Of a stretch of DNA of 64,000 nt, positions 9,001 to 18,000 are shown in pieces (positions within the stretch are counted from its first letter, which is position 1; every line of letters starts with the position of its first letter). Source of the stretch: Okamejei kenojei (Eukaryota); NCBI GenBank assembly GCA_035221665.1, contig CM069146.1:58342001-58406000 (forward strand), given 5' to 3'. The position numbers were made by a program.

Positions 9001-12000
9001 TTGTAAGCAATCTGTGGAATTCTTTGCCACAGAAGGCTGTGGAGGCCAAGTTAGTGGATATTTTTAAGGCAGAGATAGATAGATTTTTGATTAGTACGGG
9101 TATCAGAGGTTATGGGCAGGAGAATAGGGTTAGGAGGGAGAGATAGATCAGCCATGATTGAATGGCAGAGTAGACCTGATGGGCCGAATGGCCTAATTCT
9201 ACTCCTATCATTTATGACCTCATAAAATGCTCCACCATTGTATTTCTAGGCCAGTGTTTTCATTCAATATTAACCATGATTCTTAAAGAAAAGAGCTTGT
9301 CAGTTAAAAGGAAAATTCCCCAATGCATGGGATAATAACTGAAAGAACAGAACTAGCAGCAATCAGCATAAATTGACATAATTACATATGTTTGTAATTA
9401 TTGTCTTTCTACTGACTGGTCAGCACGCAACAAACATTTTTCACTGTACCTAAGTACACGAGACAATAAACTCAACTAAACAATGCAACTAGAGAGCCAT
9501 TGCCTCAATGTTTTCAATGTGCAGGGCACCTGAGACCGCGTCTCCCAGCAACACCAGGCAACTCGCCAGTGAATACAATAAAAATGGGAGGATGTTACTT
9601 TACAGCATTGTTCCTTTAGCCAAGATCCAGTTGTAGTTTTGTCTCTTTCGCCATTCGTCTTTTCGCCCAGAGTACTCAAGGAGGTGGACCTAGAAATCAT
9701 GGATGATTGGTGATCATTTTCCAATGTTCTATAGACTCTGGATCAGTTCTGGACGGGTGGGAAACTAATGTAACTCCACTTTTTAAAAAAGGAGGAAGAG
9801 AGAAAACGGGGAATTATAGACCAGTTAGCCTTACATCGGTAGTGAGGAAGATACTTCAGTTGATTATTAAAGAGGTAACAGCAGTACATTTGGAAAGCAG
9901 TGATCGGATCGTCAAAGTCAGCATGGATTTATGATGGGGCAATCATGCTCGACTAACCTGGAATTTTTTGAGGATGTAACAAGTAGAATGGATAAGGGAG
10001 AGTCAATGGATGTGGTGTATCTGGACTTGGCAGAATTAGAGCTCATGGTATTGGGGTTAGGGTATTGACATGGATAGAGAACTGGTTGACAGACAGAATG
10101 CATAGAGTAGGAATTAACGGGTCCTTTTCCTTACACGGTACACTGTGGATGGCTCGATTGTAATCGTGTATTGTCTTTCCGCTGACTGGTCAGCACGAAA
10201 CAAAAGCTTTTCACTGTACCTCAGTACACATGACAATAAACTAAACTGAACTGAACTGGAATATAGAACAGGACATCACCAAACAGGCCCTTTGGCCCAC
10301 AATGTCTATGCCAAACACAATGCCAAGACCAACTCTTATGAACCTGCATATAATCCATATTCCTCCATTCTCTGCATATCCACGTGCCTATCCAAAAGTA
10401 TTTTAAATACCGCTATTGTATCTGCTTCCACCACCACTGCCCATGGCAACATGTTCCAGGCACCCACTACTCTCCTTATAATAAAAAAAATTAAAAAATT
10501 CCTCACACATCTTCAAACTTTGCCCCTCTCATCCTAAAGCTATGCCCTCTAGTATTTGATACTTCTATCCTGGGAATACATCAAAATTACAGAATCGATA
10601 ATTGGGCACTTCCTATAATGTTTAGATTAAAAACAAAATGTTTAATTCAATATCTCATACAAGATCACACCGCAAGAAGGCTATGCAAGATCAAAATTGT
10701 TGACCTAAGGGCACCCAATGAAGCTGAAAGATTGCCATGATCTGGTATCTTCAAGGGAAAATTGGGGCAATCCATGAGGTTCAAGTAAAGCTAACATAGC
10801 AAAGGATAAATGTTTTCAATCTTACAATTTTACTTCGGAGTCACGTGAGTGACTACGTGAAGAAGGCCCGCCTGGCGCTGGAGCGGCATTACGTCGACGC
10901 TGACGGCAGAAGCAGGAGCTGCACAGACAGCTCCTCGACAGCGGTAGGTTCGGAACCGGCAGGTAAGTGCAGTTGAAAAAATTTTTTAGGAAGTCTGCAA
11001 AACTCCGTGCCTGGTGGGTTGAACCAGGATTTTAAAGGTTTTAAAAAAAACAAAGTAAAAGTTTAAATTGAACAGAAATACTCTGTTAAAAACAACGGAG
11101 TTTTGAAAAGAACGTCCCAGGGGAATACCCAGCGATCGGGACGAGAGATTAATTACGGGGCCGGTTCCGATACTGGTACCGTTAAAAATACGGTAGAGAG
11201 GTTAAAATGCTCCACAATCTTTTGGTAGGAAATTTTAAAAGTCAGAAAGACTGTAATTTAAGAAGATAATAAATTTTGCGATATGGAGAAAGTACTCCAA
11301 AATATAAAAAAGAGACAAGGGTCACAGTACCCAAACAGTTCCCCAAAAAAGACCCTGAGGGGCTTGAATATACAAAATATGGCTATGTGCCAAATTGAGA
11401 ATTTGAAACTCCGGACCCAGGATTAGGGTGGAGGAAGTCTCTTTGGATATAATTCCAAGTGGATCAGGGCTGCAAAAGACAGACCCTGCAAGTGGTGATG
11501 TGAATTATGAATGCACACCACAAATAAAAAGAGAGGCCAGATGTGCCTGAGATAGCAAAATATTTTGCTATATCTAAAGGAAGTGGTGAGGCTATGGAAG
11601 AAAACCTAGCTGCCAACATTAATTATATGGTATCTCACCAACTTCAAGAATACGATAAAACTTTTATGTTTTATTAAAATATCAACGGTAAATCCGTTTA
11701 TAATATCCATGTCTCAAATAATATGAGATATAAGAAATACAATTTCAAAGTATTTCAAAATGGTGCAAATAAGTAATACTTTCAAAATAAAATAAATTGC
11801 CATCAGTTGTGGAGCTCAATGGGAAGAAATATATATAATTTACCAAATCTGCACTATAGGTTCGCAGATCAATACAAATCAGGATATATTAAACTCCTGA
11901 TTATTATGGAATAAACCTGCCTTATGATAAATTAAAGATATTAATTACAAAAGAACAGACTACTGATCTTTAAACTTTGGGGAAAACTATGATCCAATGA

Positions 12001-15000: not shown

Positions 15001-18000
15001 AATACATTCACAGGAATGGCACGGGATGAGCCACTCGAGCAAAGATGCAAGGCCGCAGGAGGCTGTAGATTACTGTTAAAGTAAAAAGGAACCAGTCATG
15101 GTGTCAGATTTAGACACGCAATGTTCGGTTCTCTATAATTGTTGCTTTGTCATGCCATAAAAATATATATATCAATTGGTATTTGCGATAAACTTGCCTT
15201 TCAATGGAAAGGGCATTACTTTCATTTTTTATAATGTGAAATATTTATCACATAACTTGAGGCAATGTTTGGGGAAAATGTGTTATTCGCTCGTTATTGT
15301 GTTAAATGAGCCGTACTGTCGTATGGAATAAATTCTACGACACGAAAAACACAGAAAGCTTCAAACTCTTCACGTAGTCACTCACGTGACTCCGAAGTAA
15401 AATTGTAAGATTAAACGAGAACTTACCAGTTCGAAGTTTGATCGTTATTTTATGAGGAGTTACGATGAGGGATTACGTGCCCTCCACTCCCCACCCTCAT
15501 AAAATGAATGATCATCTGGTAGTTCTAAATCTATGATGAGCCTTACTATCTTACTCCGGCTATTTTTGTGTTCTGTGTTTTTCATGCCGCTGCTTTGAAG
15601 TATGCCGTTCCAGCGCCAGGCGGGCCTTCTTCACGTAATCCCTCATCGTTACTCCTCATAAAATAACGATCAAACTTCGAACTGGTAATTTCTCGTTTAA
15701 TCTTACTATTACACAGCTCAGTAAAGTAATGGCATTAAATAAGTTAAATGCATAGGCTTTTAACTCTTTGTCGTGTCTCTTGCAGAATGACTCTGATTTC
15801 CTAAACACGATCCACGAAGCCTATCTACAGATATTCCTGAAGAATGTGGTTAACATTAAGTAATGAAGAGAGACACAGGAGTGAACATGAGTGCAAATTA
15901 TTAAAGATTGCTGCAATGAGCAACATGATGCTGTAAGCATTCAACACTTCACAATATTAGTTATCGGTCTGTACATTTATCCGGCAGTTTATCTCTACGA
16001 TAATTGGTATTTCTAGTTTAAACATTATAAGCACTTATGTGAAAGTTTGCCAAAATAATAAAAGTATGTGTGCATGTAGCGATGGTAACATACTACTCAA
16101 TGCCTTATGGTACAGAGAAGCTCATCAGCAAAAGACAGGTTTTACTTGTTTTGTTTCTTTTTCGTTTTGGTAAGAAACATTTCTAAAATTACTTGATTTT
16201 ATATGTCTAGTTTGTTCCTGTTTGAAAATGTGTCAGTGGCTTTGTCACCTTTTAATGCATAAAGTAAGCATTCATTTGAGTTTTTTTCTCTTAAAAGTAC
16301 AACAGTGTTTTAAAAGCAATAATATGTCATTGCTTAGATGCAGAGGAAGGTGTTTTAATCTGTTATTTTAAACATTTTCCATTTAATGTGAAATACTATA
16401 CAAATTTGTATAGAAGAGACAGACTTGTTGTATAAATAAAGGTAAATGAAAAAGTGAGCAGGATACTGAGGCCAATAGAAACATAGAAAATAGGTGCAGG
16501 AGTAGGCCATTCGGCCCTTCGAGTCAACACCGCCATTCAATATGATCATGGCTGATCATCCTAAATCAGTACCCCATTCCTGCTAGTGGATAGTAGCAAC
16601 TAAATCTCTCTCCTAACAATTGAGTGTGATCAGTTCAACACTGTCTCTGAATGCTCATTTTGCATTGTGGATCTGGTTATAGATGTGAACAGCAGCAATG
16701 ACATAAGCAGACTCAAAGTTACACCATATTCTAAACTAAATTAAACCTGCACATTTTTGCATGTTAATATCAGTTTCACTTGCTTATTCTTGGGATCAAA
16801 CTTATACCCAATTGTAACATCACCTCCTTACTTTATGGATAAACTGTCTATATTGCAGGTTACGGATACGTTAAAATCAAAAATAAACTGTCTATATTCG
16901 GATACGTTAAAATCAAAAATAAGTTTTCACAATTTGATAAATTTGTAACATTACTTGGTTTGTAATAGTCAAATTGGTTCCTAATTTCCCTGACAAACTA
17001 AGTATTTTGGTCATTAATTGGTATCGTGTTGTAAAATGTTCAAATTAATCAAAGTTACAAATCAAAATTTTGTTGTGAGAGATTTTCAATGTAAGAGAGG
17101 TGATCTATACGAATTTCTTCGGCAGTAGACTATTCAATTGGTGATTGTCTATTCGTGGTCTTGCGTAAAGACAGTAATAATAATACTGTTTAATTCAGTT
17201 GATGAAGTGAAACAAAGATTTCCGCTTGAACAATGTCTCGCTGCATGTATCTCAGTTGCTCAATAAAATTTAAAACCTTTTGTTATCTCACCAATGTCAG
17301 CTTTATTTCGTTAAACAAAGCCCAAAGATTGGATCTTGGATTTTCTGATTATATTATCTTTACTGGAAGCTTAGTGTCAATAGTTCTGATAACATTAATT
17401 CGATAATTTTTATTTTTTTTAAATATATTTTTATTAGAAACAAACACACATTATGGTAAAAACATTTCATATATATCAATCATACATTATTAATATTATC
17501 AATTATGGATTCATTCTGCTTCTATTTAAAAAAAATATATAGATAGAATGTAATAAAGAAAGGAAAAAAACATAAATGTCAAGATAAAAAAAGAATGGAA
17601 TGATTTACTAAGAAGACATCATTGAAGATGGGTTAGAAGATTATAAAGTATAACTTTTCATCTAATCCTGAGTTCATGTTTCAGTTAGGTTCCCGTGCCG
17701 AACCAATCTACCCCTTCAAATAATCGATGAATGAAGACCATATTCTAACAAAAAGTTCTTGTTTGTCCATTAAGACAAATCTGATTCTTTCCAGGTGTAG
17801 GGTCTCCGACATTTCCATAATCCACATTTTAATTGTGGGGGTTATAGGGCCTTTCCAAAATGTTAATATTAATTTTTTCCCAGTTATTATACTGTAGTCT
17901 AGAAAGTTTCTTTGGCTTGTTGTGAGTGTTAAACTTTGCTCTGATATTCCAAGTATTATCAATTTTGAGTCTGAATCCAATTTAGTATTAACAACTTCAG

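What the first reader, a model, noticed from the sequence alone, without database searches (positions are those of the whole stretch)
10818..15706. DIRS retrotransposon with pristine cis-termini but ruined genes: a probable non-autonomous family
Seen: ITRs match 35/36; the ICR matches the left end 46/46 and the right extension 65/67, with many CpGs preserved. The 4.5-kb interior is AT-rich, full of stops and frameshifts, and shows only ghost motifs (YLDY for YLDD, NNTTAVAYVN, YR fragments), plus microsatellites and an old repeat insertion. Known: DIRS replication copies the ends via the ICR into a circular intermediate integrated by a tyrosine recombinase. Inference: this copy inserted recently, long after its ORFs died, so it was mobilised in trans. 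That would make it a large non-autonomous DIRS derivative, a class rarely described.
Basis: partly seen in the sequence, partly recalled or inferred. Interest (0 to 1): 0.72.

Follow-up and report, generated by a model that had tools for sequence, protein, structure and literature searches.

The report
Gene-dead DIRS retrotransposon with fresh ends
A 4.9-kb DIRS-type retrotransposon upstream of a skate transketolase gene has near-perfect end structures around a ruined coding interior, so it was most likely copied here by enzymes from another element, a kind of parasite-of-a-parasite already known in algae.

Summary
At 10818-15706 (+) lies a 4889-bp element with DIRS1-like architecture: inverted termini, and near the 3' end two adjacent internal complementary regions (ICRs). 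The ICRs match the left end 46/46 and the right end 65/67; the inverted-repeat core matches 35/36.

The interior has no ORF above 65 aa. It gave no credible Pfam hit in 38 pieces tested.

Four lines of internal evidence say the interior is much older than the last templating of the ends:
- CpG observed/expected is 1.2-1.9 in the termini, ICR and 5' leader (0.98 just upstream of the ICR; only the 122-bp spacer is depleted, 0.40) against 0.34 inside, which equals the host background.
- All 12 CpGs in the paired segments are intact in both partners.
- An internal duplication is about 8% diverged.
- A nested host repeat averages 71% identity to its relatives.

The best reading is that an already defective template was copied here in trans. 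Whether a family or an intact partner exists could not be tested, because no eukaryote genome collection was open. No DIRS protein could be fetched, so the DIRS ancestry of the interior rests on weak signals.

There is precedent: TOC1 in Chlamydomonas, and a zebrafish repeat named DIRS-N1. This is therefore a new member of a known kind, of moderate interest.

The parts
10818..15706 (+). Whole DIRS1-like element, 4889 bp. There is no target-site duplication: the flanks read AAATGTTTTC on the left and TATTACACAG on the right.
10818..10889 (+). Left terminus, 72 bp. The outer part 10818-10863 is complementary to the left ICR at 46/46. The conserved ITR core 10854-10889 matches the right ITR at 35/36. 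The divergent ITR part 10827-10853 is only partly like the right ITR. CpG o/e is 1.21.
   Evidence: (10827-10889 vs 15602-15664, 87.5% over 64)
10890..11215 (+). 5' leader with no repeat partner. It carries 19 CpG in 326 bp (o/e 1.20). It is a presumed non-coding cis region (promoter or packaging role is inferred).
11216..15285 (+). Degenerate interior, given as one part. These are presumed remnants of the gag-like, pol (RT/RNase H/methyltransferase) and tyrosine-recombinase genes, all broken. GC is 0.33 and CpG o/e 0.37. No ORF exceeds 65 aa. It holds three microsatellite tracts, one internal duplication and one nested host-repeat fragment.
15286..15366 (+). 3' unpaired segment just upstream of the ICR. 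The CpG-rich zone resumes here; the wider block 15010-15366 has o/e 0.98.
15367..15412 (+). Left ICR, the reverse complement of the left end at 46/46.
15405..15479 (+). Right ICR, the reverse complement of the right end at 73/75. It overlaps the left ICR by 8 bases (15405-15412), which form the junction.
15480..15601 (+). Spacer between the ICR and the right terminus, 122 bp, with 2 CpG (o/e 0.40).
15602..15706 (+). Right terminus, 105 bp. It comprises the conserved ITR 15602-15637, the divergent ITR 15638-15664 and the right extension 15665-15706 (42 bp), which is complementary to the right ICR only. As single-stranded DNA, 15360-15710 folds the terminus back on the ICR (-103 kcal/mol, z -17.7).
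10818..10825 (+). The 8-mer AATCTTAC at the left edge. The same 8-mer closes the element at 15699-15706, and it occurs only once, as reverse complement, at the ICR junction 15405-15412.

Best explanation
This is a DIRS1-like tyrosine-recombinase retrotransposon copy that was already unable to encode its own proteins when it arrived at this site. Shown: the cis architecture is complete and almost error-free, and the coding interior is degenerate and bears old damage. Inferred from the Cappello model as summarised in PMC7192593 and PMC3266345:
1. A transcript running from inside the left terminus to inside the right terminus was reverse-transcribed by enzymes supplied by another, intact DIRS element.
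2. The missing outer ends were rebuilt by annealing the terminal fragments to the two ICRs.
3. A tyrosine recombinase, also supplied in trans, recombined the junction with a target carrying a short identical sequence, leaving no target-site duplication.

The undepleted CpG blocks are the 398-bp 5' end and, at the 3' end, the stretch upstream of the ICR, the ICR itself and the right terminus. The 122-bp spacer between ICR and right terminus is depleted. These blocks coincide with the non-coding ends. That fits a lineage in which only cis-acting sequence stays under selection for being copied.
For: - Architecture: inverted termini, adjacent left and right ICRs and a right extension, with 3 mismatches in 149 paired positions and 12/12 CpGs kept in both partners.
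- The right end folds onto the ICR with z -17.7.
- CpG o/e is 1.21 (left ITR), 1.20 (unpaired leader), 0.98 (unpaired 3' block), 1.93 (ICR) and 1.69 (right ITR). The interior is 0.34, the flanks 0.36 and 0.39, and the window 0.41. The unpaired blocks have no partner that could have homogenised them.
- The internal duplication in the interior differs at 8 substitutions plus 2 indel columns in about 125 columns. Compared with 3/149 at the ends, Fisher p is 0.024. Two of its differences are CpG decays.
- The nested host-repeat fragment averages 71% identity (66-79%) to 13 other copies. Those copies average 82% among themselves over 78 pairs. This damage therefore predates the last templating of the ends.
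- No coding capacity: the longest ORF is 65 aa of 88 listed, and no credible Pfam hit came from 38 forward pieces.
- Weak forward-strand coding ghost: stop deficit z -3.5 on + against -1.2 on -, with controls at -0.9 to -2.0.
- Feasibility: the DIRS-1 ICR is essential and its RT acts in trans on a truncated construct (PMC7192593 section 21).
- Precedent: TOC1 (PMC9940879 passage).
Against: - Only one copy could be examined. No second copy of the termini or the interior lies in the window, and no host genome was available.
- No intact partner is known.
- The DIRS ancestry of the interior is not shown statistically. No credible Pfam hit came from 38 pieces; three sub-threshold matches to unrelated families, E 0.045-0.18, were all. 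The PDB gave 0 hits. The protein database gave 0 hits from 2 candidates. The atlas gave only a sub-threshold lead. The period-3 signal (p about 0.017) is no stronger than in one flank control.
- With substitutions alone, the duplication-versus-termini contrast is only p 0.07.
- The 122-bp spacer between the ICR and the right terminus is CpG-poor (o/e 0.40, 2 CpG), so not every end segment looks young.
- A native low-CpG, A-rich composition of the coding region could exaggerate the CpG contrast.
- Complete trans-mobilisation of a truncated DIRS-1 was not obtained in the one experimental study read.
Confidence: 0.62

Rival explanations
1. One-off recombinant. During reverse transcription the enzyme switched between the RNA of a young intact element (ends) and the transcript of an old dead copy (interior). 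This locus would then be a single chimera and not a member of a self-sustaining non-autonomous family.
For: The change from CpG-rich to CpG-poor is abrupt at both sides: 10-15 CpG per 200 bp falls to 0-3. The interior sits at the host's CpG equilibrium, as expected of DNA that has long been resident.
Against: Two switches at the right places are needed. The transitions coincide with the presumed coding/non-coding borders, which selection on cis regions explains equally well. One copy cannot tell the two apart.
Confidence: 0.15
2. An old autonomous copy that decayed in place. Its ends look young because of gene conversion (within the element or from young relatives) or because they escaped germ-line methylation.
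For: The paired segments could in principle homogenise one another. CpG retention alone could reflect lack of methylation.
Against: The unpaired leader (o/e 1.20, 19 CpG) and the unpaired 3' block (0.98) have no partner within the element. Lack of methylation would not prevent other substitutions, yet only 3 of 149 paired positions differ, while interior markers are 8% to about 29% diverged. The paired tracts are only 36-75 bp long, which from general knowledge is short for conversion.
Confidence: 0.08
3. A copy that was intact on arrival and was ruined quickly, for example by editing of its single-stranded cDNA.
For: The forward strand is A-rich and C-poor (A 0.374, C 0.137). DIRS cDNA is single-stranded (PMC7192593 abstract), and the ends would be protected by pairing.
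Against: Editing produces transitions only. The interior also carries a diverged duplication, three microsatellites, a nested old repeat and remnants in different frames. G exceeds C on the forward strand, which is not the pattern expected from minus-strand deamination.
Confidence: 0.05
4. Assembly artefact that joins the ends of a young copy to the interior of an old one.
For: Repeats are prone to collapse in assemblies. The window contains two N runs elsewhere.
Against: There is no N or discontinuity within or next to the element. The immediate flanks are unique in the window. The ICR, spacer and right terminus are contiguous and mutually consistent.
Confidence: 0.04

Closest known systems
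DIRS1-like retrotransposons as annotated by Piednoel et al. 2011 (PMC3266345, passages incl. part of Table 3)
   Same: The layout is the same: left ITR, left ICR, right ICR, right ITR and right extension. Total length is 4889 bp, within the published 3974-6283 bp. The ICR sum is 113 bp (published 85-130). The right extension is 42 bp (published 9-75). The ITR has a divergent part and a conserved part. There is no target-site duplication.
   Different: There are no readable gag, pol or recombinase genes. The conserved ITR is only 36 bp, like the two Aplysia elements listed (32 and 36 bp) and unlike the vertebrate ones seen in the table rows read (102-146 bp). The two ICRs overlap by 8 bases where 3 are described.
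TOC1 of Chlamydomonas reinhardtii, called a non-autonomous DIRS retrotransposon (PMC9940879, passage)
   Same: It is a large element of the DIRS order that moves without encoding its own enzymes.
   Different: TOC1 is from a green alga. Its mobility was observed directly as copy-number variation among strains. Its terminal structure was not compared here, because no sequence was available.
DIRS-N1, a zebrafish repeat name (PMC5400779, one passage)
   Same: The name suggests a catalogued non-autonomous DIRS family in a vertebrate. That '-N' marks non-autonomous families is my recollection of repeat-library naming.
   Different: Nothing about its structure was seen, and no sequence comparison was possible.
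Non-autonomous LTR derivatives (LARD, TRIM; named in PMC8498967 passages) and mini-Ty1 (as cited in PMC7192593 section 21)
   Same: The logic is the same: cis-acting ends are kept and the coding capacity is dispensable. Mini-Ty1 needs 380 nt at the 5' end and 357 nt at the 3' end. That is close to the 398-bp 5' end block and the 421-bp 3' end zone here; the latter has aggregate CpG o/e 1.37 but includes a CpG-depleted 122-bp spacer.
   Different: Those have direct LTRs and use a DDE integrase. This element has inverted termini plus an ICR and presumably uses a tyrosine recombinase.

Membership tests
DIRS1-like superfamily (order DIRS) | Inverted terminal repeats | tested here: met
   10854-10889 matches 15602-15637 at 35/36. 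The wider alignment 10827-10889 vs 15602-15664 is 87.5%.
DIRS1-like superfamily (order DIRS) | Two adjacent internal complementary regions near the 3' end, complementary to the start of the left terminus and the end of the right terminus | tested here: met
   The matches are 46/46 and 73/75. The fold has z -17.7.
DIRS1-like superfamily (order DIRS) | Right extension complementary only to the right ICR | tested here: met
   15665-15706 is 42 bp, within the published range of 9-75 bp.
DIRS1-like superfamily (order DIRS) | 3-bp circular junction, with the element beginning and ending in the same trinucleotide (usually NTT) | tested here: inconclusive
   The overlap measured here is 8 bases (AATCTTAC), which contains CTT. 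One copy cannot separate element bases from target bases.
DIRS1-like superfamily (order DIRS) | No target-site duplication | tested here: met
   The ten bases on either side are unrelated.
DIRS1-like superfamily (order DIRS) | Encodes a tyrosine recombinase | tested here: not met
   There is no ORF above 65 aa. No Pfam integrase hit came from 38 forward pieces. Only motif-like remnants are seen by eye.
DIRS1-like superfamily (order DIRS) | Encodes RT/RNase H (and methyltransferase) related to Ty3/Gypsy | tested here: not met
   No credible Pfam hit came from 38 pieces. The RNase-H-like piece gave 0 hits in the protein database and 0 in the PDB. The atlas lead RVT_3 scored 0.82, below the 0.9 line.
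Non-autonomous DIRS (TOC1 type) | DIRS-type cis structure without coding capacity | tested here: met
   See the rows above.
Non-autonomous DIRS (TOC1 type) | Several copies sharing the same defective interior, or evidence of recent movement | not testable with these tools
   The window holds one copy. No eukaryote genome collection was available. ORFs from the termini have no match in the protein database.
Non-autonomous DIRS (TOC1 type) | An intact partner with matching termini in the same genome | not testable with these tools
   The reason is the same. The only RT in the window is a LINE with no significant similarity to the element.
Ngaro / PAT-like elements | Split direct repeats (A1 ... 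B1 A2 B2) | tested here: not met
   The 6 direct-repeat families found are microsatellite-type, an internal duplication or short 2-copy matches. None is terminal.
LTR-type non-autonomous elements (LARD/TRIM) | Direct long terminal repeats with target-site duplication | tested here: not met
   The termini are inverted and there is no duplication of the target.

The most novel reading that the evidence does not exclude
This may be a long-lived non-autonomous DIRS lineage in a skate, in which selection has preserved only the non-coding sequence at each end (a 398-bp 5' block; at the 3' end, the sequence upstream of the ICR, the ICR and the right terminus) while the whole coding interior drifted to the host's CpG equilibrium. 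Such a lineage would be a natural 'mini-element' that maps what a vertebrate DIRS needs in cis. The 8-base overlap of its two ICRs, mirrored at both edges of the insertion, would mean that the recombinase exchanges strands over a core longer than the 3 bases so far described.
Probability: 0.3. Interest if true: 0.55.

Novelty: new member of a known kind. Interest (0 to 1): 0.36.

Why it matters
DIRS elements are the least understood order of retrotransposons. Their cis requirements have been probed experimentally only in Dictyostelium. A vertebrate copy whose ends are preserved and whose genes are not would point, from sequence alone, to the parts that matter for being copied. It would also show that DIRS enzymes can serve defective relatives in a cartilaginous fish. 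For genome annotation, it is a reminder that protein-based DIRS finders miss such copies. The element lies about 7 kb upstream of the transketolase start and shows no sign of affecting that gene.

Tried and rejected
I then used stop-free pieces only, which gave no credible hit in 38 pieces. Three matches with E 0.045-0.18 were to unrelated families and well below their cut-offs.
- Fetching DIRS proteins as comparators failed. The RNase-H-like piece in 'longer' mode gave 2 candidates and 0 hits. A 54-aa reverse-strand ORF in the leader, used as a proxy for other copies, had no candidate. The PDB gave 0 hits. The atlas's best score was 0.87, unnamed.
- As a result no domain map could be built, and breaks could not be counted per gene against a reference.
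- I did not use the one representative-library job. The remnants are at most about 35 aa per frame, and Pfam profiles had already failed at a far smaller search space.
- The LINE RT of the window compared with the element gave 2 HSPs with E 2.5 and 7.0, which is not similarity.
- Rfam found no family in the window.
- The flanks show no repeat that would reveal an empty site.
- The period-3 test was weakly positive, but one flank control was as strong.
- The prokaryote genome collection and the phage, plasmid and E. coli collections were not searched, because they cannot hold a skate repeat.
- Literature searches for non-autonomous DIRS and for DIRS in cartilaginous fishes found no description of such an element in a skate or shark. 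Subscription papers and repeat libraries were not searchable.
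Full report
What is there

The window is eukaryotic. Its CpG observed/expected ratio is 0.41 overall. On the + strand, 14 exon-sized matches to transketolase run from 22765 to 45682. By tblastn, 13 of them are 90-100% identical, and one 62%, to the protein named for the thorny skate Amblyraja radiata; they are somewhat less identical to another skate and to a shark. The host is therefore a skate or a close relative and not human. 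The exons were compared one by one and I made no joined model. The two N runs were left alone.

The element lies at 10818-15706, about 7 kb upstream of the transketolase start codon. Its immediate flanks are unique within the window.

Checking the observation

- The left end 10818-10863 is the exact reverse complement of 15367-15412 (46/46).
- The last 67 bases before the shared 8-mer at the right end match 15413-15479 at 65/67.
- The inverted-repeat core 10854-10889 matches 15602-15637 at 35/36.
- A 32-base stretch of the left end occurs only at these two places in the window, with none expected by chance.
- As single-stranded DNA, the right end folds back on the ICR with -103 kcal/mol and a z-score of -17.7.

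In the nomenclature of Piednoel et al. 2011 (PMC3266345; I read passages including part of Table 3), the element has these parts:
- a 72-bp left terminus;
- a 46-bp left ICR and a 75-bp right ICR;
- a 122-bp spacer;
- a 105-bp right terminus whose last 42 bp form a right extension.

All these sizes, and the total of 4889 bp, fall inside the ranges that paper gives. There is no target-site duplication. Split direct repeats, the mark of Ngaro and PAT elements, are absent.

The interior

Between the left ITR and the ICR the three forward frames hold 86, 122 and 79 stops in 1492 codons each. The longest open stretch is 83 codons, no longer than in random sequence of the same make-up: 32% of simulations do as well. 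Of 88 ORFs of at least 20 aa, the longest is 65 aa.

All presumed genes (gag-like, pol, recombinase) are therefore broken. The damage I could count or see is:
- many stops;
- an uncounted number of frameshifts, inferred because motif-like remnants sit in different frames;
- three microsatellite tracts;
- one internal duplication;
- one nested fragment of a host repeat.

Breaks per gene could not be counted because I could not obtain a DIRS protein for comparison:
- No credible Pfam hit came from the 38 stop-free forward pieces.
- The RNase-H-like piece found nothing in the large protein set, with 2 candidates and 0 hits.
- The same piece found nothing in the PDB.
- The atlas gave only a sub-threshold lead.

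The interior's descent from DIRS genes thus rests on three things: the cis structure around it; remnants seen by eye in the expected order; and a modest forward-strand deficit of stops (z -3.5 against -1.2 on the reverse strand, with controls at -0.9 to -2.0). The period-3 signal is weak and no better than in one control.

Old inside, young outside

This is the core of the case, and it can be made from this one copy.

1. CpG content. CpG observed/expected is 1.21 in the left terminus, 1.20 in the 326-bp leader, 0.98 in the 357 bp before the ICR, 1.93 in the ICR and 1.69 in the right terminus. It is 0.34 in the 3.8-kb interior, the same as the flanking host DNA at 0.36 and 0.39. The leader and the pre-ICR block have no partner inside the element, so homogenisation between repeats cannot explain them.
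2. Mismatches. The paired segments differ at 3 of 149 positions and keep 12 of 12 CpGs in both partners. The two halves of the internal duplication differ at 8 substitutions and 2 indel columns in about 125 columns. Fisher p is 0.024, or 0.07 for substitutions alone. Two of those differences are CpG decays.
3. The nested host repeat. The fragment averages 71% identity (66-79%) to the 13 other copies in the window, which average 82% among themselves over 78 pairs.

If all this damage had happened after arrival at this site, the ends should be at least as diverged. They are not. So the template was already degenerate when its ends were last rebuilt from the ICR, and the proteins must have come from elsewhere.

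Two caveats apply. The 122-bp spacer is CpG-poor (2 CpG). A natively A-rich, CpG-poor coding region would inflate the contrast.

Mechanism

The steps are inferred, not shown. Transcription, reverse transcription in trans, restoration of the outer ends on the ICR, and recombinase-mediated integration without duplication follow the Cappello model.

For that model, the Dictyostelium study (PMC7192593; passages and section 21 read in full) showed that the ICR is essential and that the RT can act in trans on a truncated construct. The same study found mostly linear single-stranded cDNA. It could not amplify a circle junction and did not obtain full mobilisation of the truncated element.

The CpG-rich zones end about where a first ATG-started ORF remnant begins, and they resume just before the ICR, so they coincide with the non-coding ends. 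The 398-bp 5' block and the 421-bp 3' end zone resemble the 380 and 357 nt needed by mini-Ty1, as cited in that paper; the 3' zone, however, includes the CpG-depleted spacer.

Comparison and novelty

Structurally this is a DIRS1-like element. By coding content it fails the gene-based criteria, as a non-autonomous derivative should.

Such derivatives are not new. TOC1 of Chlamydomonas is called a non-autonomous DIRS retrotransposon (PMC9940879, passage). A zebrafish repeat called DIRS-N1 is mentioned in PMC5400779 (passage); my reading of the '-N' is recollection.

My searches found no description of one in a cartilaginous fish. They cover open-access text only, I opened no supplements, and repeat libraries were not searchable.

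Other papers, read as passages only:
- PMC8969392 and PMC9210276, for the definition of ITR and ICR.
- PMC8498967, for the LARD and TRIM classes.
- PMC5753468 and PMC9004415, which disagree on whether any DIRS trace exists in human. The point has no bearing here.

What stayed unchecked

- Copy number, shared defects, an intact partner and an empty site.
- The only open genome collection holds prokaryotes.

Verdict

The inference of trans-mobilisation is the best reading of internal evidence. The 'family' is untested, and the kind is already known. Interest is moderate. It rests mainly on the clean separation of preserved cis ends from a decayed interior, and on the 8-base junction overlap.

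Noticed in passing
10818-10825, 15699-15706 and 15405-15412: The two ICRs overlap by 8 bases, and the same 8-mer (AATCTTAC) sits at both edges of the insertion. The literature read describes a 3-bp junction. Five extra matching bases have a chance of about 1 in 1000, so the target may have shared a longer core with the junction.
   Followed up: partly
22765-45682 (+): This is a transketolase gene with 14 exon-sized tblastn matches; 13 are 90-100% identical, one 62%, to the protein named for Amblyraja radiata. A GC-rich CpG island (GC 0.61 at 22001-23000) surrounds exon 1. The DIRS element lies about 7 kb upstream, in intergenic DNA.
   Followed up: partly
54464-55444 (+), next to the N run 53666-53838: An open 327-codon reading frame has a strong reverse-transcriptase match (RVT_1, E 2e-35). 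It is a LINE-type element, unrelated to the DIRS copy (tblastn E at least 2.5). The region 54-56 kb has an unusually strong GC skew (+0.46). The neighbouring N run was left as it is.
   Followed up: partly
e.g. 50298-50383, 50632-50713, 61569-61653, 34108-34188, 40460-40535: An abundant ~85-bp dispersed host repeat has 14 copies of at least 65 nt in the 64-kb window, 76-89% identical to the first copy by blastn. Some sit in inverted pairs. No Rfam family matched anywhere in the window.
   Followed up: partly
1829-2185 (+) and 41607-41969 (-): Remnants of Tc1/mariner-type transposase are present: HTH_Tnp_Tc3_2 at E 1e-5 and DDE_3 at E 2e-11. The second lies within a transketolase intron.
   Followed up: no
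10841-10848 and its complement in the left ICR: The left terminus carries the palindrome TCACGTGA, which includes an E-box-like CACGTG, within a short hairpin-capable stretch. It is a possible promoter or protein-binding site of the terminus, and is untested.
   Followed up: no
11216-15009 (+): The forward strand of the interior is purine-rich and C-poor (A 0.374, G 0.186, T 0.303, C 0.137), while the flanks are nearly symmetric. This strand bias has survived the decay of the genes.
   Followed up: partly
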